Below are positions 3,262-12,245 of a DNA stretch of 30,451 nucleotides, piece by piece. Below the pieces are notes generated by a model, which ran no database searches, was not told the origin of the DNA, and saw only the letters and a program-made list of their open reading frames with translations. The DNA is from a virus (Duplodnaviria; Heunggongvirae; Uroviricota; Caudoviricetes): positions 1 through 30,451 of the IMG/VR virus record IMGVR_UViG_2728369554_000010; one strand, given 5' to 3'. Each line of letters starts with the position of its first letter. Position 1 is the first letter of the stretch. A program made the position numbers and the translations under genes.

Positions 3262-3523
3262 GCGATCGTTTTACGCGCTTTTCTTCTTGTTGCGATCCTT
3301 TTTTTCAGTTTTATTTTGGAGCTTAATTTTGTGCAGGCCGCGCCGTGTCTGCCTTCTTTGTTTGATGGCTGTTTGATGCGATCCTTTCGTGATCGTTTTT
3401 TTGTCTCGCGTAAAGTATGAAAACTCTTTTAATATCATGCGGTTTTATTGCTCCGGCCATTTGTGCGATCGTAAAAACCACTTTGAAAACTGCAAAAAAT
3501 TTCAAAGCGTGAAATTTCAGATC
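3262..3523. promoter_or_regulatory. GATC-rich intergenic region with repeated GCGATC(G/C)TTTT-like motifs
   Basis: Six GATC sites in about 260 bp (near 3264, 3294, 3380, 3391, 3467, 3520), several inside a reiterated GCGATC-T-run motif; lies upstream of the secreted-protein/YafO-like operon. Confidence 0.35.
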
Positions 3524-3628
3524 TTCGCTTTTCCCTCAGTTGCTGCGCGGGCTGGCGGTCATTTTTGCACGGCAGAAAACTGAAAAACTGTTTCGACACG
3601 AAACCCGCGGGTTGGAGGGGGTAGCGCG

Positions 3629-3671
3629 GTTTACGTCACCTCACGCTTTACGTCACACCGTTTACGCGGTG
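3629..3671. repeat. Three direct repeats of TTTACG(T/C) motif (iteron-like) near the prophage boundary
   Basis: GTTTACGTCAC, CTTTACGTCAC, CGTTTACGCGG at 15-17 bp spacing; adjacent GTTTCG-ACA-CGAAAC and AACCCGCGGGTT palindromes at about 3586-3612. Confidence 0.4.
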
Positions 3672-3789
3672 TGCGCATACAGCGCCAGAATGGCACGCAG
3701 AACGCATTAATCAGGTGGCAGATATGAAAACGCACGACCGGAGCCGTGCGTTGCGTGATGGGCGTTTATGGGGGTGGTATGCCCGGTGA

Positions 3790-5487
3790 TCAGGCGATAA
3801 GGTCACCGTATTTTTCGCGCAGGCTCGTAGCCTGTTTGGCGTCTGCGGCAAGTTCGCTGCTGTTTGTTGGTGCGCCGGTGTTGCTGTGGGTGTGGTTTGC
3901 AGTGTGTGTGGCCAGCAACTGAACCAGATCCAGAATATCAATCAACAACGTCAGCAGATTAAGTCCGGATTTTTCCCGTGAGCCACCGCGACCAATAAAT
4001 ACTGTCGGGGCTGTAAACTCCAGACCACCGTCCGCCCGGCATGTTCTGCGGCCTCCCACGTTTTCAGTAAGGTCGCGCTCAATCGTGGATGTCGCCCCTT
4101 TGAGTTTAGTCAGCAAATCCTGCGCTACCATCTGGATATGCTCACCGGCTGCGATCGCATAATGACCAGTAGTAATGTGTTCTGTCTGGCCTGTCATCAG
4201 CTTGCTGGTTCCCAGAACGCTGGTTATGTCGTTTGCCTGTACTGTTGTTGTTCTGGTTGTTGTTGTGCGTTCTTCCTGATCGCTGTTAATGGTTCGTCTG
4301 GCTGAATGCTCCCTGATTTGCTGATCGGTTTCTCTGTGCCAGCTTCCGTCAGTCGTGACGCGCTGAAACACTTCTGCGCGCTGTTGCTGCAGCTGTTCGC
4401 CGGGCTTTACATCAGGCAGGTTATGGCCAGCGGGTAAGATTTGCCTGATAACGGGTTTGTCCGGACGTCCTTCAATGTTGGATATTTCCACGATGGTGCC
4501 TGCCGGTGGGTAGGCAAAACATCCCGCCTCACTGCCAGCCATGGGGACGGGGAGCGGTACTGCCGGGTAAACGGGCGTGTCGCTTTTATCGTTGCCGTTC
4601 TCATCAAGCAACTGCACATCGACGGCGTAGCGTGGGCGGAAACTGTCGGCCACGTCGCCCAGGGTGGTGGGCTCCGTTGGCGCAATGACGCGCGCCAGCC
4701 GGGTATGTAGCGTACCGCTGGCCAGTTCCGGGAACTGTGTTTCCATTTGTCTGCGTAATGGTGATTTGGAAACAGGGTTACCCGTGGCGGTAAGGCGCTC
4801 CCATGTCAGGGTCATTTTCTCGTTGTTGAGGGCTACACGGGTAATGCGCCCGGCCGGTAGGTTCACGCCCGGTCGCACAGTTTCCATAAACATGATGTCG
4901 ATGCTGTTTCCGCCGCTTTGCCCGAGTGTGTACTGTTGCGGAATATCCGGTATTGTAATACTGGCAAATCGTGAATCAGCTGCGCTTCCCACAAATACAG
5001 AACCGTCCGGCATAGGGTGCCAGACGTAATCGCTGATACTGAATGCTCGCCCCAGTTGGCTGAGCAGTTGTGCTCCGCTGCCACTGTGGGTGATGTAGGG
5101 AGTTGGTATACTGGCATAATCCGCATCCGGAGTGATAAAAACGATACCGCTTTGTCGCCCCAGATTATCGAGTACCCCCCGCAACGTCGGGTGTTGCATG
5201 GAGCAAGGGAAATCAAAATCCAGCACAGCAGCCGCTTCACGAATAAAAAGGCGACGTGAGCCATTTTCAGCAGGTTGATCGCGCTCAATGTAGCCGGAGA
5301 AATAGCGCCATGCTTCACCGTCACGGCCGAGATCAATTTGTACCATTGCGCCGGCAAGGCTGTGTTCGGGTGACAGATTGTTAACAGAAATGAAGCCACG
5401 ACCGGCAGCATTCAGGGTAAGAACAAGGCTTATATCGGCAATTTCCACCTGTTCGCCATTAATCATGCAGCGTTGTATCAATTTCAT
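3790..5487 (-). CDS. Phage tail protein, putative baseplate central spike/hub-like (C-terminal HxH apex-like motif)
   Basis: 565 aa; last gene of the late operon, start overlaps upstream stop; C-terminal LLATHTANHTHSNTGAPT resembles the His-rich apex of P2 gpV-type spikes (from memory); function not certain. Confidence 0.4.
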   Translation of the reverse strand: MKLIQRCMINGEQVEIADISLVLTLNAAGRGFISVNNLSPEHSLAGAMVQIDLGRDGEAWRYFSGYIERDQPAENGSRRLFIREAAAVLDFDFPCSMQHPTLRGVLDNLGRQSGIVFITPDADYASIPTPYITHSGSGAQLLSQLGRAFSISDYVWHPMPDGSVFVGSAADSRFASITIPDIPQQYTLGQSGGNSIDIMFMETVRPGVNLPAGRITRVALNNEKMTLTWERLTATGNPVSKSPLRRQMETQFPELASGTLHTRLARVIAPTEPTTLGDVADSFRPRYAVDVQLLDENGNDKSDTPVYPAVPLPVPMAGSEAGCFAYPPAGTIVEISNIEGRPDKPVIRQILPAGHNLPDVKPGEQLQQQRAEVFQRVTTDGSWHRETDQQIREHSARRTINSDQEERTTTTRTTTVQANDITSVLGTSKLMTGQTEHITTGHYAIAAGEHIQMVAQDLLTKLKGATSTIERDLTENVGGRRTCRADGGLEFTAPTVFIGRGGSREKSGLNLLTLLIDILDLVQLLATHTANHTHSNTGAPTNSSELAADAKQATSLREKYGDLIA

Positions 5488-6059
5488 GTTTTCCCTTCCT
5501 CTTTCACGCTCCCGATGCCAACAGCATCCAGACCAGAGCCAACGGCATCATTGATTTTTTTCCAGAACGAACTTTGCGTATTCATGCCTTTGTCTGGTAC
5601 CTGTTCGCTGCCATTCTGGGTCTGCTGTCTGGCGATGGTTTTTTGCGAACCGCTGCGTGCGGATGCTTTCTCTGGCACGCTTAATTTTTCCCTGAGAGTA
5701 AAGGTGATCTGCCAGTGCATTTTTCCCTGTTGTTCCGTGGCATCAATGCCACCAGAAAATACCCCCTGTCGCATATTGATTGCCTTCGCGGTAGCGTTAG
5801 CAATGCGATATGTTTTTTTAGCACCGTTGCTTTCTGTTGCCTCCGCAAGCTGAAAAATACGGGTCAGAATAGCTTCATCGTTAAAATCAATAACCCCCGA
5901 CACGCGCAGCTCTTTAGCCTTGTTTCCCTGCTGGGCGCTCGTGGTGCTGGTTGACTGTCCGGACATATCTTTGTCCGGTAGTTGCATGGTGGCGCTGACG
6001 GTGATGTTACGCAGCAGAATGGCTTCCCCGTCAAGCGCAAGGACAATCATCTGGGTCAT
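5484..6059 (-). CDS. Phage tail-associated protein, function unknown
   Basis: 191-aa ORF whose stop overlaps the spike-like gene start; sits in the tail operon; no motif I can name. Confidence 0.4.
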   Translation of the reverse strand: MTQMIVLALDGEAILLRNITVSATMQLPDKDMSGQSTSTTSAQQGNKAKELRVSGVIDFNDEAILTRIFQLAEATESNGAKKTYRIANATAKAINMRQGVFSGGIDATEQQGKMHWQITFTLREKLSVPEKASARSGSQKTIARQQTQNGSEQVPDKGMNTQSSFWKKINDAVGSGLDAVGIGSVKEEGKT

Positions 6060-6744
6060 GTAGTGCTTCCCTTAGTGATGAGAGATTATCGCCGACGAAC
6101 AGCATCACAGCTGTAAAAACCCACTCGGGGTGTGGGATGTTTTTTTGTATCAGCACTGCAGCCTGGCTAAGGGCTCCCTTGTAGCAAAAGCGCCACACCG
6201 GGCAAACTTTTTGCCGGAGTGCGGCCTGCTGATCAGCGATTTCCTGTAAGGCTTTATCTCTCGCATTCATGAACTGATGCAGCGATGATGACAATGTTTC
6301 CGGTGATGTGGCGGCAGGAGTGGCTGCCTGTGCAATGGTTGCTGCCAGCGACATGCTGCGAGTGGTCTGTGTCGACAGCATTATCGGTTCCGGAAGTGAT
6401 GTTGCCGGTCTGGCGGGGATTTGCATTCTGCTGATGGCCAGTGAAAGTTGACTGGAAATCATGCGGGACATTCGCCCCACCTCTGGCAATGGAAATGCGC
6501 CTGAAAATTGCCTGGCGAGTGATAAAAACTCGCCAGCAGAAGGAGCGCAAAACAACAGCGCCACAATGTCTTTTTCTGTGCTTTCTTTCAGGTAGGGTAA
6601 AAGTGCAGATACAGCATTTTCGGGGCTGAGATAACGCCCCGATGGTTTGATGTTTCCGGTATTTTCTGACCACGGATGAAGACAAACCACAGAACATTTA
6701 ATGTTTATGGCAGACGGACGTAAAATTACCTCTTTCCATTTCAT
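6031..6744 (-). CDS. Phage tail-associated protein, function unknown (Cys-containing motifs)
   Basis: 237-aa ORF; start overlaps the Tfa2 stop (ATGA); contains CSVVC, CPVWRFC and C-terminal DDCPC. Confidence 0.4.
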   Translation of the reverse strand: MKWKEVILRPSAINIKCSVVCLHPWSENTGNIKPSGRYLSPENAVSALLPYLKESTEKDIVALLFCAPSAGEFLSLARQFSGAFPLPEVGRMSRMISSQLSLAISRMQIPARPATSLPEPIMLSTQTTRSMSLAATIAQAATPAATSPETLSSSLHQFMNARDKALQEIADQQAALRQKVCPVWRFCYKGALSQAAVLIQKNIPHPEWVFTAVMLFVGDNLSSLREALHDPDDCPCA

Positions 6745-7313
6745 TCTGCTTTGCCCACCTGAAATGCCCTAATTGCAGCAATGTTATTCAGTGTGGCCAG
6801 CGTGTTTTTCATCTCACGCTGGCGCAGGTAAATCTCATCGTTGCGTGCAGCCTGAGCCTGCACCATTGCCGTAAGTAGTTCTTCCAGCTTTTGTTGTGAC
6901 AATTTAATTTGTTGGTTATTTGCATCACTCCATACTGTGGCATTGTGTGCCACACCAGATTTTGCTGCCATCACTGCCGGGAATAAGCGTTCCAGTGAGG
7001 ATTTTCCTCCATTCCATGTGCTGCTGTTCCATTCGAATGTGAACGGCTGCGCCTCCTGTTCTGTTCGCCAGCGCCTGATTTCCTCTTTTTTCAGTTCTTT
7101 TTCTTTGTCCAGCATCTCTGCTGTTACAGTGAAGGGGATGATTTCACCAAACTCACCGCTCATCAGTGTTCCCCATACCCGCTGGCCTGATGCAGCTGAA
7201 TCATTTTCCACTGCACGATAAGGAATATAATCAGCCCGCCCTTCAAACAACACTTCACAGGAAACAGACCCGTCTTCCAGGTATTTCATCGCCTTTATGT
7301 CGATTATTTTCAT
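6741..7313 (-). CDS. Tail fibre assembly chaperone (Tfa), second copy
   Basis: ORF 6741-7343; preferred start MKIIDIK at about 7313 overlapping the fibre-2 stop (TAATG); size about 190 aa and position immediately downstream of a tail fibre gene. Confidence 0.6.
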   Translation of the reverse strand: MKIIDIKAMKYLEDGSVSCEVLFEGRADYIPYRAVENDSAASGQRVWGTLMSGEFGEIIPFTVTAEMLDKEKELKKEEIRRWRTEQEAQPFTFEWNSSTWNGGKSSLERLFPAVMAAKSGVAHNATVWSDANNQQIKLSQQKLEELLTAMVQAQAARNDEIYLRQREMKNTLATLNNIAAIRAFQVGKAE

Positions 7314-9352
7314 TATTCTGCCCTCATCACCAGGCAAATCCACCAGGCATTGGCTTTATTCCCACAGTTCAGACTCTGACTGGAGCCATTCAGAATAAAA
7401 TAGGACCCCGGCAATAACCCGTACATCATCGATACGTTGTAAACCGATGCCGCTGCGCACGGATTACCATTGTTCTCAAACATAAGCGATACATGCCGTA
7501 ACTTTTCGCCTGATATCCTGTCCCCACGCTTATGTGAGGCAAGGTCAGCGACAGATATTGCTGCCAGTGTGACTCCGTCAATCCCCGGGTTTCCCCAGAA
7601 GTCAGCAGAGCGTAATCCCTTCGCGCTGAGATTTCCCCAGCCAGCCAGACCGGCTCCGGCACTGGTCCATTTCAGCCAGTTGATAAACATTTCTCCCTTC
7701 TTACTCATGAAAATAATGAGCTTGTCTGCACGCGATTGCGAAGACGAGGAGGCTGTATCCGGAATAATAATTTCAACAATCCCTTCCAGACGATTTTCCT
7801 TGTCAATAATCTGAGGCGCGCTATATGAAGTACCGTCTCCTACCGCATACCGGCCCGGTGGTGTAGTGGATACCCAGGAAATAAAATCAGCAGGGCCGTT
7901 TTCTCCCCTGAAAATGACTTTGTCTTCATGTCGGTAATATCCTCCATATCCCAGCGTCCCCGGAATGGCCACCACGCCTTCGCTGCGATCATAAATATTA
8001 TTCTGTGGCACCACAGTGTCTGACCTTTCCAGCTCAAGCACTCTGCGCATATCTTCCGGTGTGGCCTGTGCCAGCAGTGAACGGGCTTCTGGCGTCAACC
8101 GTGTCAGCGATGCGTTCCCGTCCGAATCAAAGTACAGAAGATTATCTGCCTGAGTGTTTAACCTGCTGATGGCGGTTAAAACATCACTAAGTGGCTGTTT
8201 GCCTGCAAGCGCGTTAGTGACCGTCGTTGCAAAATTCGGGTCACTGCCCAGCGCCGCTGCCAGCTCATTCAGTGTGTCAAGGGCTTCCGGAGATGAGCCA
8301 ACCAGTGCAGCGAGCAGTTTGCGGACAAACGCCGCGTTCGCCATCTCCAGCCCGACCGCATCATCCGGTGGGGTTGGTGTGGTTGGCGTACCGGTGAACG
8401 CCGGGCTGTTCAGCGGCGCGCGGGTTTCAATCAGCGCCCTGAGTGAAGCCTCGTTGACTTTCAGGTTTTCCCAGCCAGTCAGCAATCCATTTCCTGTACT
8501 CCAGTAACGGTTGTAATAAATATCACCGTTAATGCCATAGAAAATAATGGCCTTTGCTGTATGTGGTGGCAGAGGTGTGGAGCGTTCTGCTTCCAGCCAG
8601 CGGATACTTATCATCCCCCGGAAGGCGATGCCGGGAAGTACTCCGCTTCCCCCCTCCACATAATATTCTCCGGGTTCCACACATCTTACCCATGCCAGCA
8701 AATCAGCATCGTTGTTAAACCTGACAGCATCACCCGGAATAAAAATATGACCAAAACCAAATGCGCCCGGTATCGCCAGACAACCTTCAGTCCGGTCTCG
8801 AATATCACCCTGTGGCTCCATTATGGCTGAAACTTTCAGTCCCAGATTATCGCGGGATTCCTGTTGCGCCTCTTCGCCTTCTGCTGCAATTTCTGACAGG
8901 TGATTAGGAGTTTTCAGTGCTGTTTTCAGCTCCGGAGTGATATCCACCTGCCAGCTCTGGGGAGGGACGCTGATTTGCGCGGACTGAGCAATGCCTCTGT
9001 AGGTGATTGTAAAATTGCGGACGAGTGACTCACCTGTCGTTTTCTGTCTGACGGGAGTTTTTATTACGCCGCATAACGTTCCGCTGGCCTGATGGATGAG
9101 ACAAATCCAGTCATAACTGAAAACACAGTCATCAGGAACAACGGCGCTGCACACAATAGTGTCCTGGCTTAACTGGCCACAGGTCAGTTCATTCACAGCG
9201 TATGTGATTCTGTCTTCCGGAACGGTATTGTCTTCGCGCGTTGGTTCCCGCTCCATCAGGGCAAAAATAATAGCGTCAGGGCGTGCAGGTAAATTACTGG
9301 AAGTGCATTCAGCAACCCACTTTTCAAATGCTTTTGTTAACAGTGCGCTCAT
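7313..9352 (-). CDS. Tail fibre protein 2 (mosaic; P2 gpH-like collar region plus duplicated distal domain)
   Basis: 679 aa; contains APLNSPAFTGTPTTP...LNELAAALGSDPNFATTVTNALAGKQP matching P2 gpH from memory; N-terminal 150 aa similar to fibre 1; two copies of an about 115-aa domain. Confidence 0.8.
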   Translation of the reverse strand: MSALLTKAFEKWVAECTSSNLPARPDAIIFALMEREPTREDNTVPEDRITYAVNELTCGQLSQDTIVCSAVVPDDCVFSYDWICLIHQASGTLCGVIKTPVRQKTTGESLVRNFTITYRGIAQSAQISVPPQSWQVDITPELKTALKTPNHLSEIAAEGEEAQQESRDNLGLKVSAIMEPQGDIRDRTEGCLAIPGAFGFGHIFIPGDAVRFNNDADLLAWVRCVEPGEYYVEGGSGVLPGIAFRGMISIRWLEAERSTPLPPHTAKAIIFYGINGDIYYNRYWSTGNGLLTGWENLKVNEASLRALIETRAPLNSPAFTGTPTTPTPPDDAVGLEMANAAFVRKLLAALVGSSPEALDTLNELAAALGSDPNFATTVTNALAGKQPLSDVLTAISRLNTQADNLLYFDSDGNASLTRLTPEARSLLAQATPEDMRRVLELERSDTVVPQNNIYDRSEGVVAIPGTLGYGGYYRHEDKVIFRGENGPADFISWVSTTPPGRYAVGDGTSYSAPQIIDKENRLEGIVEIIIPDTASSSSQSRADKLIIFMSKKGEMFINWLKWTSAGAGLAGWGNLSAKGLRSADFWGNPGIDGVTLAAISVADLASHKRGDRISGEKLRHVSLMFENNGNPCAAASVYNVSMMYGLLPGSYFILNGSSQSLNCGNKANAWWICLVMRAE

Positions 9353-9358
9353 TACTTC

Positions 9359-9910
9359 TTAATTCTCGCTAATGTTCTGCGGTAATTCTGGCCATACAAT
9401 CGCGGCATACGATGCTTTATCTGTAACCTGGCTGAATGTCATCTCTCGTAACTTTTTTGTATAAATACGGCAGGCTTTCAGTTTTTCCCTGTCTTCGTCG
9501 CTGATTAATCCCAGCAGCAGGTCTTTTTCCCACTCGCAGGTCATGATACTGAACTGTTTTAACAGGGCATCACGCTCGTCTTCTGCTTTTAATTTGTAAT
9601 CGAAGACAAATTCATCATTGCGGTAAAACCAGTAACCCGGTGCAGTGATGCGGCGGTTAGCGGTAATATCCGGAACTTCAATAACACTGGCATTACGGGG
9701 TTCAATGCCTGTCACATCCTTACCGACCCACACCACGCGCCCGTCCCCGGTGTAAACCATTTTTATTGTGTCGCTGGCAAAGTTCTTCTGTTCTTCATAC
9801 CAGTTTTTGTCGTCTTCCGAAAAAAGCCAGGTGACACCATATTGTTTTGTCATCTGATATTGTTCTGCGGTTTTCGGATTGCCCGCAGTAATATTTTTTA
9901 AATGCAACAT
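9359..9910 (-). CDS. Tail fibre assembly chaperone (Tfa)
   Basis: 183 aa beginning MLHLKNITAGNPKTAEQY, the characteristic Tfa N-terminus; directly downstream of fibre 1. Confidence 0.8.
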   Translation of the reverse strand: MLHLKNITAGNPKTAEQYQMTKQYGVTWLFSEDDKNWYEEQKNFASDTIKMVYTGDGRVVWVGKDVTGIEPRNASVIEVPDITANRRITAPGYWFYRNDEFVFDYKLKAEDERDALLKQFSIMTCEWEKDLLLGLISDEDREKLKACRIYTKKLREMTFSQVTDKASYAAIVWPELPQNISEN

Positions 9911-9912
9911 TA

Positions 9913-11613
9913 TTAAACACTCGCCACGTTATACCAGGTGCCGTTAATCAGTTTCTGAAGCGGTCGGTAATACACGCCGCCGATGTTATCTGCCGAATTA
10001 CTTCCGGTTTCCTGCACATTAATACCAGATAATCCATGGCCTGAAGGTGAGCGAAATGTCCAGGATATCTGGTTACCTCCCGGGTTGTAATACATTTCGG
10101 AACCATAACGCACATCCTGCACGCCGCCTGTTTTGGTCTGGTAACGGGCATCAAAGTTTCCGTAGTCTGACGGTGTTACCCGCCCGGTAACGTTTACAGG
10201 TTTATTACTCTGAATGCTGCCATTCTGAAAACGCAACACATGCACGCTATTGGCATAAACATCCAGCAGGCCATCACCATTCTGTTTCAGGCCGGTATCG
10301 TTATCCCCGAAAGCAATTGAGTTTCCGCCCAGCGCATTCTGAACGCCGATACCCAACGCACCGTTAACTTTCGAACCACCGCCAACAGATACTGCGTGTG
10401 GCATGGAAACTTCACCCGTCCGCAAATTAATAGTGAACGGACGCAGGGGGCCAATATCGCCATTCTCGCCCTGACCTTCACTGGTAGGGATAAGGTGCAG
10501 GCACTCTTCCGAACGACGAAAAATCAGGCCAAAAGCTTCGTTGAAAATCCTCAGTGCATTAACACCACGGATTTTCAGCTCCCCGGTCATGGTGTCGCCG
10601 TCGCGCTCAACAGCGTCTTTTGCTTTATCCATTGCGGCTTTTACTGCCTTTGATGTGGCGGCGCGGTCTTCTGCGTCGCTGTCGGTGGAGTTGCTGTACT
10701 GCGCAAAGCCTTTCTCCTTCAGTGTTGCGTCCGGATGATGGCGGGATTTTTCGTGCTCTGCCAGTGCATTGCTTTGTTCTTCGTCTGGTGTCTCCGGGCG
10801 CAGGTCCTGTGGGCCGTCTCCTGTCATTTTTGCAAGTGGCGCGACAAAGTGTCGGAAGCCGTTACCGTCTGTATAAGACGCATGTTCCTGGCGGGCGCAG
10901 AACGTAAAAACGGTATTCCATTCGCCAGTAACAAATCCCTGCCAGCTTGCATCAATCCAGAGGGTATCCCCGACCGCAGCCGGCAGGCTGTAAGGTTCGC
11001 GCAGACTGACGCGCAGACCTCCCACATAACCCACGCCGGCGGCAACAGTAGCGGTACCGTCCTGATAGCTGACCTGAAAACCATCCCCCAGAAAAGCGGC
11101 TTCACCGTAGTGATCAAACGCCAGCAGCCGGCGGGCCTCATCCATTCCTGCAAGGCGTGCAGTGAAATCAATCTGCCAGACATCAGCGCTGACATCGATA
11201 TGCATTGCTGCGGCTGCGCCGTCAAACTCCATGGAAAATGTGCGGATCAGGTTGTTTCCCTGCACGCCGTTCGCTGTTTTAATTTTTTGCTGACGAGGTG
11301 TGTGTGCAATCATGCAGAGCACGCCGCTTTCTTCGTTCAGCAGACCGATCCAGTTGTATTCGAAGTCGCCGACTGTCGTGTCCAGAATGATGGAAAACGC
11401 GGTCGCGTTCGGCGACAGGAGGCCGTACTGGGTGACCGGCGCACGATACTGAATCATGGATTCATCAGGGAGTATCTCATCGCGGGGGATCTCTGCGGAT
11501 TCATCCTGTCCCGGAATATATGCAAAAACAAATGTATCCGGGCGCGCAGGTTTTCCACTGATGATTTGATTTGCGCACCAGTGTTCGTACTGTTCAGTAA
11601 TAATCGTGCTCAT
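9913..11613 (-). CDS. Tail fibre protein 1 (P2 gpH-like C-terminal region)
   Basis: 566 aa; HEKSRHHPDATLKEKGF, NALGGNSIAFGDNDTGLKQNGDGLLDVYANS, NFDARY and C-terminal INGTWYNVASV closely parallel P2 gpH as I recall it. Confidence 0.85.
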   Translation of the reverse strand: MSTIITEQYEHWCANQIISGKPARPDTFVFAYIPGQDESAEIPRDEILPDESMIQYRAPVTQYGLLSPNATAFSIILDTTVGDFEYNWIGLLNEESGVLCMIAHTPRQQKIKTANGVQGNNLIRTFSMEFDGAAAAMHIDVSADVWQIDFTARLAGMDEARRLLAFDHYGEAAFLGDGFQVSYQDGTATVAAGVGYVGGLRVSLREPYSLPAAVGDTLWIDASWQGFVTGEWNTVFTFCARQEHASYTDGNGFRHFVAPLAKMTGDGPQDLRPETPDEEQSNALAEHEKSRHHPDATLKEKGFAQYSNSTDSDAEDRAATSKAVKAAMDKAKDAVERDGDTMTGELKIRGVNALRIFNEAFGLIFRRSEECLHLIPTSEGQGENGDIGPLRPFTINLRTGEVSMPHAVSVGGGSKVNGALGIGVQNALGGNSIAFGDNDTGLKQNGDGLLDVYANSVHVLRFQNGSIQSNKPVNVTGRVTPSDYGNFDARYQTKTGGVQDVRYGSEMYYNPGGNQISWTFRSPSGHGLSGINVQETGSNSADNIGGVYYRPLQKLINGTWYNVASV

Positions 11614-12245
11614 GCTTCATCTGCCTGTAATGTGTAATGTTCCACGGACAGGCCGTAATGTCCTGCCTGTAGCGAAGCGGTTAACCAGATGGTGTCCTTT
11701 CTCACCGTTGCTTCTGCTGTGTGATACCTGTAATGGCCGTCGAATGTGCTGGCTGTCAGCCGGGCGGTGGTTGTATTGATTACCTGAAAGAAATAGCGCC
11801 TGCAGGTACGGCCATACTGGCGCACGAGCTGCATCATCAGCGCATTGTTTTCACTTAACTGGGTGTCATTAATGCGCAGTAAAATAACGTCCCAGTCATG
11901 CTGCAGCTGCCGTTCCAGTGTTTTAACGTCTCCCACGCCAAGACGCTTAAAGATGCGTTCGAATCCGGCGCGTTCGCCCGAGTCCTGAGCGTTAATAAAC
12001 GCGTGTTTCACCCTTAAGCGAAATAACGAAACCGGCTCCCCTTTAAATCGGGTGATATTGCGCTGATAAGCCAGCAGGTTAAGTAAAGGCTCTGCGCAGG
12101 TGTCGACATCAATCTGCTGTAGTGGCCACGTCAGCCAGCTGTATACCTTTTCCCAGTAGCGATGCGATGAATGTGCCAGCGTTAACGGCTCGCCTTTATT
12201 CATCCAGGTGGGAAGCGGGAATTCAGGGATCTCCGGAAGTTTCAC
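11610..12245 (-). CDS. Baseplate wedge protein, tail protein I-like (putative)
   Basis: 211 aa between J-like gene and fibre, overlapping both (coupled); assignment is mainly positional. Confidence 0.45.
   Translation of the reverse strand: MKLPEIPEFPLPTWMNKGEPLTLAHSSHRYWEKVYSWLTWPLQQIDVDTCAEPLLNLLAYQRNITRFKGEPVSLFRLRVKHAFINAQDSGERAGFERIFKRLGVGDVKTLERQLQHDWDVILLRINDTQLSENNALMMQLVRQYGRTCRRYFFQVINTTTARLTASTFDGHYRYHTAEATVRKDTIWLTASLQAGHYGLSVEHYTLQADEA

What the first reader, a model, noticed from the sequence alone, without database searches (positions are those of the whole stretch)
7313..9352. Tail fibre 2 is a mosaic with an internally duplicated distal domain
Two copies of an about 115-aa domain (each starting (D/N)IxDR(T/S)EG..AIPG and ending GL.GW.NL) flank a P2 gpH-like collar segment (APLNSPAFTGTPTTP...LNELAAALGSDPNF). 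The order anchor, domain copy A, gpH-like shaft, domain copy B suggests recombination between fibre genes and duplication of a candidate receptor-binding or intramolecular-chaperone domain.
Basis: seen in the sequence. Interest (0 to 1): 0.45.

Follow-up and report, generated by a model that had tools for sequence, protein, structure and literature searches.

The report
Mosaic prophage tail fibre, repeated knob-like domain
The second tail-fibre gene of this E. coli prophage really does carry two copies of a roughly 125-residue domain around a P2-like shaft, but the copies came together by swapping ready-made fibre modules between phages rather than by duplication inside this gene, which is ordinary tail-fibre evolution.

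Summary
The 679-aa ORF (7313..9352, minus strand) holds two homologous domains, D(A) at aa 176-302 and D(B) at aa 445-579. They share 33% identity (E=3e-17, z=25 against shuffles) and flank a P2 gpH-like shaft at aa 303-444.

- **Mosaicism is shown at DNA level.** Shaft, D(B), tip and the first ~82 codons of the downstream DUF4376 chaperone (window 8427..7066) are 99.1% identical to the distal end of a lambdoid side tail fibre in E. coli 33F4. The left joint sits exactly at the D(A)/shaft boundary.
- **In-gene duplication is not supported.** D(A) is 60-81% identical to domains in other fibres but about 30% to D(B).
- **The repeat is a family feature.** The family has 87 representatives among 1.84 billion proteins. 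Its modules recur as D-T, D-D-T, D-S-D-T and S-D-D-S-D-T.
- **D(B) is not the distal end.** A conserved ~100-aa tip (aa 580-679) follows it.

This is a new member of a known kind and of modest interest.

The parts
8918..9352 (-). TF2 aa 1-145: N-terminal baseplate anchor (phage tail-collar fibre N-terminal domain)
   Evidence: PF12571 matches at 34.2 bits against a cut-off of 23, aa 3-144. It is 34% identical to the anchor of tail fibre 1, E=3e-25, and 85% identical to the sister allele in L004.
8828..8917 (-). TF2 aa 146-175: linker (TALKTPNHLSEIAAEGEEAQQESRDNLGLK) that starts the Stf-derived part
   Evidence: The same linker precedes D domains in lambdoid Stf proteins P0008, P0013, P0014 and P0016. 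Sister alleles L003 and L005 diverge from the window right after WQVD at aa ~145.
8447..8827 (-). TF2 aa 176-302: domain copy A, D(A)
   Evidence: Family HMM hit, E=6e-51. It is 81%, 78% and 75% identical to D domains of P0017, P0018 and P0008, and 30% to copy B. Its centre (aa 204-266) is only 29% identical to the L004 allele, while its edges are 61-72%.
8021..8446 (-). TF2 aa 303-444: P2 gpH-like shaft module (S)
   Evidence: aa 311-444 are 56% identical to P2 gpH. PDB 9d93 'tail collar fibers gp4' matches aa 341-400, E=1.2e-9. The segment is about 80-86% identical in DNA to the shafts of many E. coli prophage Stf genes. It was helical in the low-confidence single-sequence model.
7616..8020 (-). 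TF2 aa 445-579: domain copy B, D(B)
   Evidence: Family HMM hit, E=4e-39. It is 88% identical to the terminal D of P0022 and at most 43% to all others. The AlphaFold model gives a compact alpha/beta domain, with block pLDDT up to 95.
7316..7615 (-). TF2 aa 580-679: C-terminal tip domain (T), the true distal end; stop codon at 7313-7315
   Evidence: A T module follows the last D in 65 of 87 family representatives. It is 31% identical to the L004 allele and has no Pfam or PDB match.
6741..7313 (-). Cognate fibre chaperone (DUF4376 protein, 190 aa from the ATG at 7313)
   Evidence: PF14301 matches, E=2e-12. Its ATG overlaps the TF2 stop as TAATG. Its N-terminal part travels with the tip and its C-terminal DUF4376 half with the prophage backbone.
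7066..8427 (-). Exchanged cassette: shaft + D(B) + tip + first ~82 codons of the chaperone
   Evidence: 99.1% identical over 1362 nt to the distal end of the lambdoid Stf and its chaperone in E. coli 33F4 (L006 5993-7354), with unrelated flanks.
9913..11613 (-). Tail fibre 1 (566 aa), the prophage's other fibre with a P2 gpH-type distal part
   Evidence: PF12571, PF03406 and PF20744 match. None of the D, S or T profiles match it.
9359..9910 (-). Tail fibre assembly protein for fibre 1
   Evidence: PF02413 matches, E=2.7e-20.

Best explanation
TF2 is the second baseplate-attached tail fibre of an HP1/P2-like E. coli prophage, and it is assembled from interchangeable modules. In order these are a lineage-specific PF12571 anchor (aa 1-145), a linker plus a globular domain D(A), a helical P2 gpH-like shaft S, a second and only distantly related domain D(B), and a ~100-aa tip T. 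A translationally coupled DUF4376 chaperone gene follows.

The two D copies were not duplicated in this gene. They belong to different branches of a small tail-fibre domain family and were brought together by homologous recombination. The recombination used the conserved segments as homology arms: the shaft, the edges of D, and the DUF4376 C-terminal half of the chaperone.

Inferred: in the trimeric fibre each D layer forms a knob-like node on the rod, as in R-type pyocin fibres. The terminal D-T unit, folded and perhaps capped by the chaperone, carries the main receptor specificity. The hypervariable centre of the proximal D(A) offers a second, more proximal contact site, or at least a folding and registration node for the adjacent shaft.
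For: - **The repeat is real**.
- **Family architectures.** Among 87 representatives, D occurs once in 68, twice in 15 and three times in 3. The orders seen include D-T, D-D-T, D-S-D-T, S-D-D-S-D-T and D-S-D-S-D, on either PF12571 or lambda-Stf N-termini. Rac-SA53 tail3 reads S-D-D-S-D-T.
- **Copy relationships.** A against B is about 30% identical. A's nearest relatives are 81%, 78% and 75% identical, and B's nearest is 88%.
- **DNA cassette.** The block is 99.1% identical to a lambdoid Stf, with joints at TF2 aa 309 and chaperone aa ~82.
- **Sister prophages carry other module orders at the same locus**.
- **Variability pattern.** Against the same-architecture allele in L004, the D centres and T are about 30% identical while the shaft, linker and anchor are 82-85%.
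- **Chaperone.** The gene is a DUF4376 protein overlapping the TF2 stop as TAATG. DUF4376 proteins are experimentally studied tail-fibre chaperones in Alteromonas phages (PMC10579305).
Against: - No binding or structural experiment exists for D or T.
- The model is a monomer, so the trimer arrangement is inferred.
- The tree is a neighbour-joining tree on about 125 residues without support values, although the identity ranks do not depend on it.
- The direction of the cassette transfer is unknown.
- The DNA source of the linker plus D(A) block was not found outside the 5 near-identical genomes.
- Whether both fibres are mounted on the virion is untested.
Confidence: 0.8

Rival explanations
1. 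One reading: copy B, or copy A, arose by duplication of a distal domain inside this gene, and the shaft was then inserted between the copies.
For: The two copies are homologous. An ancient duplication somewhere in the family's history must underlie multi-copy fibres.
Against: The copies are only about 30% identical. Copy A is 60-81% identical to domains of at least 11 other proteins, and copy B ranks 74th of 87 among A's relatives. The A-to-shaft junction (GWENLKV[ND]EASLRALIE.RAPL) is conserved in Rac-SA53 and other Stf proteins, so D-S is a pre-existing unit. S-B-T exists without A at 99% DNA identity elsewhere.
Confidence: 0.05
2. The D domains are purely structural nodes for trimerisation, folding or length-setting along the rod and have no role in receptor binding. 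All specificity lies in the tip T.
For: The N-terminal ~25 residues (Q.DIYDRT.GRLA.PGAFGFG) and the C-terminal edge of D are conserved across the family. Pyocin knob domains are proposed to aid trimer folding (PMC6116203). Copy number varies freely from 1 to 3, as expected for spacers.
Against: The centre of both D copies is as variable between alleles (29-32% identity) as the tip (31%), while the neighbouring shaft is 82% identical. That pattern is typical of exposed surfaces under diversifying selection or exchange. In pyocin fibres the most variable regions, Knob2 and the foot, are taken to set the killing spectrum.
Confidence: 0.3
3. D is an intramolecular chaperone, or the repeat marks a self-cleaving assembly domain.
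For: None beyond its place in a fibre.
Against: No Peptidase_S74 or any other Pfam match appears in 44 family members. Neither copy is C-terminal, and D(A) is followed by 377 more residues. A dedicated chaperone gene follows the fibre.
Confidence: 0.02
4. TF2 is a decaying pseudogene, as the PGAP annotation of two genomes suggests.
For: PGAP marks it as two partial pseudogenes in NZ_CP043414 and NZ_LR778147.
Against: The ORF is uninterrupted in the window and in both of those records. It is annotated as an intact 'phage tail protein' in other genomes. It is translationally coupled to its chaperone. All family modules are full length.
Confidence: 0.05

Closest known systems
Lambdoid prophage side tail fibres of E. 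coli (Stf of Rac-SA53 tail3, KU052037; Stf of strain 33F4; K-12 Rac StfR)
   Same: They use the same shaft, D and tip modules and the same DUF4376-type downstream gene. The distal 371 aa of TF2 are essentially identical to the 33F4 Stf (99.1% DNA identity). Rac-SA53 tail3 has three D and two S modules.
   Different: TF2 has a PF12571 myovirus-type anchor rather than the lambda Stf N-terminal domain and Ala/Ser-rich stalk. It sits after baseplate J/I genes rather than after gpJ and lom.
Bacteriophage P2 gpH
   Same: The shaft segment aa 311-444 is 56% identical. The position after baseplate genes and the fibre-plus-chaperone gene pair are shared. Horizontal exchange of H-gene segments is the classic example of fibre mosaicism (own knowledge: Haggard-Ljungquist et al. 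1992, listed as a reference in PMC3945230).
   Different: TF2 lacks the gpH distal receptor-binding region, which in this prophage sits in fibre 1 instead. The D and T modules gave no match in P2, where only aa 311-444 aligned.
R1/R2 pyocin fibres (PDB 6CL5/6CL6)
   Same: Rods are interspersed with globular domains. Repeated knob domains of low mutual identity (20%) and a C-terminal binding domain carry the variable regions, and a separate chaperone gene lies downstream (PMC6116203).
Alteromonas phage V22/A5 tail fibres with DUF4376 chaperones
   Same: The layout runs from fibre through knob(s) to a distal head. A DUF4376 chaperone gene lies immediately downstream, and knob copy number differs between related phages (PMC10579305).
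   Different: Homology of the fibre domains was not tested here. In A5 the extra knob is described as an insertion or duplication, whereas here the two copies have separate origins.

Membership tests
Phage tail-collar fibre proteins (PF12571 N-terminal anchor; P2/HP1-type baseplate fibres) | N-terminal PF12571 domain above the gathering score | tested here: met
   34.2 bits against a cut-off of 23, aa 3-144.
Phage tail-collar fibre proteins (PF12571 N-terminal anchor; P2/HP1-type baseplate fibres) | Gene lies in the late tail operon downstream of the baseplate J and I genes and is followed by a fibre chaperone gene | tested here: met
   The PGAP context in L001 reads J/gp47, tail protein I, fibre 1, Tfa, TF2, DUF4376. 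The stop and start overlap as TAATG.
P2 gpH orthologues | Similarity along the whole protein, including the C-terminal receptor-binding region | tested here: not met
   Only aa 311-444 align with P2 gpH, at 56% identity. The gpH-type distal region (phrog_6859, PF20744) is in fibre 1 and not in TF2.
Lambdoid side tail fibres (Stf) | Prophage tail fibre N-terminal domain of lambda Stf type | tested here: not met
   No Pfam hit other than PF12571. The N-terminus is unrelated to the MAVKISGVL... N-terminus of the 33F4 Stf.
Lambdoid side tail fibres (Stf) | Distal shaft-D-tip module with a DUF4376 chaperone | tested here: met
   99.1% DNA identity over 1362 nt to the 33F4 Stf. The same modules occur in Rac-SA53 tail3.
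Recent internal (in-gene) domain duplication | The two copies are each other's closest relatives | tested here: not met
   A against B is about 30% identical. A's best relative is 81% and B's best is 88%. The sister copy ranks 74th of 87 for A and 40th of 87 for B.
Intramolecular chaperone domains (Peptidase_S74-type) | C-terminal position and a match to the family profile | tested here: not met
   No Pfam match in TF2 or in 44 D-T units, even at E<=1. D(A) is internal and D(B) is followed by T.
Knob domains of pyocin/phage fibres | Trimeric globular node on the fibre axis | not testable with these tools
   Only a monomer prediction was possible.

The most novel reading that the evidence does not exclude
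The D domain is a previously undescribed fold restricted to tail fibres of Enterobacterales and Pasteurellaceae phages. It would act as an autonomous, swappable receptor-binding knob. Fibres with two or three D layers, such as TF2, would then read out two or three different surface ligands spaced along one fibre, each exchangeable on its own through the conserved shaft 'recombination linkers'.
Probability: 0.25. Interest if true: 0.45.

Novelty: new member of a known kind. Interest (0 to 1): 0.3.

Why it matters
The locus is a clean, datable example of a receptor-specificity cassette shared at 99% DNA identity between a contractile-tail prophage and a lambdoid prophage. The cassette comprises shaft, domain, tip and the matching part of the chaperone. 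The joints fall at module boundaries that could be used directly as fusion points when engineering fibre chimeras. It also delimits an unannotated ~125-aa fibre domain and a ~100-aa tip domain that deserve family definitions, and it exposes a propagated misannotation ('shikimate transporter'). It does not change how tail-fibre evolution is understood.

Tried and rejected
- **Self-BLASTP of the whole protein** reported only the identity hit. The repeat needed an explicit segment-against-segment alignment.
- **Word-indexed homologue search with copy A** gave only 7 mostly fragmentary hits. The exhaustive HMMER search was needed.
- **Single-sequence AlphaFold of aa 176-679** failed, with pLDDT 36.
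- **AFDB50 was not available**.
- **NCBIfam had no model for TF2**.
- **Pfam scanning of 44 D-T units** gave only scattered chance hits.
- **Literature searches** found comparators but no description of this domain.
- **The pseudogene reading** was considered and rejected.
- **An inversion-switch reading** was considered and set aside. Both fibre-plus-chaperone sets lie in the same orientation within one operon. No repeat search for inversion sites was run.
Full report
**The object.** The finding's coordinates hold one intact ORF on the minus strand, 7313..9352, encoding 679 aa and here called TF2. It lies in the late tail operon of an E. coli prophage. The gene order is baseplate J, tail protein I, tail fibre 1 (9913..11613), a Tfa-type assembly protein (9359..9910), TF2, a DUF4376 protein (6741..7313), a 237-aa unknown, an HP1 ORF34-like protein and a 565-aa baseplate protein. 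The same 5-kb stretch is 99.6-99.7% identical in five complete E. coli genomes. No sigma-70-like promoter was found between 3500 and 12000. TF2 starts 6 nt after the Tfa stop, and its own stop overlaps the chaperone's ATG as TAATG. The genes therefore look co-transcribed and translationally coupled.

**Checking the observation.** A local alignment of aa 171-312 against aa 441-600 scores 155, against 29.9 +/- 4.9 for 2000 shuffles with a maximum of 55, so z=25. BLASTP gives 33% identity over 136 columns, E=3e-17. The repeat is real. A family HMM delimits copy A at aa 176-302 and copy B at aa 445-579. Two corrections apply. The end motif is GLLTGWENL in A and GLAGWGNL in B. A further ~100-aa C-terminal domain (aa 580-679) follows copy B.

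**Anatomy.**
- Pfam recognises only the N-terminal anchor, PF12571 at aa 3-144. It is 34% identical to the anchor of fibre 1.
- Residues 311-444 are 56% identical to P2 gpH.
- Residues 341-400 match a solved 'tail collar fibre' chain, E=1.2e-9.
- Neither the D copies nor the tip match Pfam, NCBIfam or any PDB sequence, even with a 44-sequence profile at E<=10.
- PHROGs place TF2 in tail-fibre families, and phrog_2636 matches in two stretches.

**The domain family.** A profile of the two window copies plus one homologue was searched against 1.84 billion representatives. It found only 87 proteins at E<=0.001, 80 of them at E<=1e-10. Named members come from E. coli, Escherichia sp., Salmonella and Plesiomonas. 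tblastn also finds the domain in phages of Escherichia and Actinobacillus. These include the virulent Av-05 (gp76 = S-D-T, gp78 = D-D-S) and the jumbo phage Goslar.

Mapping D, shaft (S), tip (T) and anchor (N) profiles on all 87 gave a clear grammar:
- The canonical distal end is D-T, and 65 of 87 have T.
- D occurs once in 68 proteins, twice in 15 and three times in 3.
- The orders seen include D-D-T, D-S-D-T, S-D-D-S-D-T and D-S-D-S-D.
- The N-termini are of either PF12571 type or lambda Stf type.

Rac-SA53 tail3 reads S-D-D-S-D-T, and it conserves the junction GWENLKV[ND]EASLRALIE.RAPL between a D and the following shaft. TF2's order N-D-S-D-T is thus one instance of a recurrent modular design.

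**Duplication or shuffling?** In an alignment of 88 full-length D copies, A and B are about 30% identical. A is 81%, 78% and 75% identical to D domains of P0017, P0018 and P0008. It is also 60-65% identical to terminal D domains that directly precede a tip (P0014, P0015, P0019, P0021). B is 88% identical to the terminal D of P0022 and at most 43% to the rest. The sister copy ranks 74th of 87 for A and 40th of 87 for B, and the two fall in different parts of the NJ tree. The copies therefore share an ancient ancestor, but they were not duplicated in this gene.

**DNA-level joints.** Megablast and blastn show that window 8427..7066 is 99.1% identical over 1362 nt to a lambdoid prophage of E. coli 33F4. 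There it forms the distal end of the side tail fibre downstream of gpJ and lom, next to tRNA-Ser and hya.
- The block starts at TF2 aa 309, exactly where D(A) ends and APLNSPAF begins.
- It covers S, D(B) and T, and ends about 82 codons into the chaperone gene.
- The 33F4 fibre has a lambda-Stf N-terminus and no D before this shaft.
- In the alignment, the chaperone is identical to 33F4's from its ATG to about residue 79, diverging after EEI[R/S]RWR. Measured from the listed GTG start, aa 1-100 are 84% identical to 33F4's and the rest 39%. The reverse holds for the sister HP1-like prophages: 50-51% for aa 1-100 and 61-62% for the rest.

Sister prophages share the backbone on both sides. The anchor is shared to about aa 117-200, and homology resumes within the chaperone gene at about 7189-7090. 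At this locus they carry other fibres: N-S-D-D-T in strain A36, a diverged N-D-S-D-T in SC418, and a 285-aa fibre plus an unrelated 352-aa ORF in RIVM_C019217.

The shaft is about 80-86% identical in DNA to those of dozens of E. coli Stf genes. It is therefore a ready homology arm. I infer that exchange occurs by homologous recombination in the conserved segments. This is consistent with experimental stf/tfa recombination between lambda and the Rac and Qin prophages (PMC3945230).

**Variability.** Against the same-architecture SC418 allele:

| Segment | Identity |
|---|---|
| Anchor | 85% |
| Linker | 83% |
| Shaft | 82% |
| D(A) edges | 61-72% |
| D(A) centre | 29% |
| D(B) N-terminal edge | 57% |
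| D(B) beyond its N-terminal edge | 32% |
| Tip | 31% |

Both D copies thus carry a hypervariable core comparable to the tip.

**Structure.** A single-sequence prediction failed, with pLDDT 36. With a 44-sequence alignment of D-T units, the model of aa 440-679 reached pLDDT 81.6 and pTM 0.59. It shows a compact alpha/beta D domain, with one helix and about six strands, followed by a mainly beta tip.
- Foldseek against the PDB found nothing below E=0.1.
- BFVD returned only the family's own homologues.

The fold is unassigned.

**Mechanism.** The modular composition and the recent cassette exchange are shown. The functional reading is inferred. In the trimer, each D layer probably forms a globular node on the rod. 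This would resemble R1/R2 pyocin fibres, where rods alternate with two knob domains of 20% mutual identity and a C-terminal lectin-like foot, and where the variable regions map to Knob2 and the foot (PMC6116203).

The D(B)-T unit co-inherits with the N-terminal part of a DUF4376 chaperone, so it is the likely main specificity determinant. DUF4376 proteins are the cognate chaperones of Alteromonas phage fibres, for which a transient tip 'cap' role was suggested from models. Knob number also differs between related phages there (PMC10579305). D(A), with its own hypervariable centre, may give a second, proximal contact site. The rival is that D is only a folding and spacing node.

There is no support for an intramolecular chaperone role: no S74-type match, neither copy is C-terminal, and a separate chaperone gene follows. 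The PGAP pseudogene calls in two genomes are annotation artefacts, because the ORFs are intact.

**Verdict.** The mosaic origin holds. In-gene duplication of a distal domain does not. TF2 is a new member of a well-known kind, the mosaic and modular phage tail fibres. Its useful specifics are precise module boundaries, a 99%-identical cross-morphotype cassette, and an unannotated domain family. Interest is modest, at 0.3.

Noticed in passing
window 7313-9352; L001 10142-11653; L004 3155-4519: PGAP splits the intact TF2 ORF into partial pseudogenes in NZ_CP043414 and NZ_LR778147, and labels the NZ_CP043414 middle piece 'shikimate transporter'. The same misnomer sits on fragment proteins P0002 and P0007 and on other E. 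coli Stf genes. It appears to be a propagated naming error for a tail-fibre segment.
   Followed up: partly
window 6741-7343: The mechanical ORF starts at a GTG at 7343. The likely start is the ATG at 7313, which overlaps the TF2 stop as TAATG and gives the 190-aa product that PGAP calls. The first ~82 codons of this gene travel with the fibre tip, and the DUF4376 half travels with the prophage backbone.
   Followed up: yes
L003 1892-3829; L004 2468-4519; L005 2162-4102: The second-fibre locus is hypervariable among sister prophages. One allele reads N-S-D-D-T, another is a diverged N-D-S-D-T, and a third has a short 285-aa fibre followed by an unrelated 352-aa ORF instead of a DUF4376 chaperone.
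   Followed up: partly
window 3790-6744: Three more late genes lie downstream of the fibres. They are a 237-aa protein with no Pfam match (phrog_31292/1677, function unknown), an HP1 ORF34-like baseplate protein (PF25759), and a 565-aa 'baseplate protein' (phrog_2258) with a weak VgrG-like stretch at aa 315-363. Baseplate or hub-like genes placed after the fibre genes are unusual compared with P2.
   Followed up: no
window 9913-11613 and 7313-9352: The prophage encodes two complete fibre-plus-chaperone sets in the same orientation. Their PF12571 anchors are only 34% identical. This implies either two fibre types on one baseplate or alternative occupancy. No repeat search for an inversion switch was run.
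   Followed up: no
window 3500-12000: There are no sigma-70-like promoter matches, against 7.7 +/- 2.9 expected. There are 19 terminator-like hairpins, against 9.1 +/- 3.0 expected. This is consistent with a long late operon, but the hairpin excess is unexplained.
   Followed up: no
L007 2378-5837 (Escherichia phage Av-05); L008 1985-5852 (phage Goslar): The same D and shaft modules occur in virulent phages: Av-05 gp76 (S-D-T), Av-05 gp78 (D-D-S) and the 1324-aa Goslar fibre (D-S...). The module set is therefore shared between temperate and virulent coliphages.
   Followed up: partly
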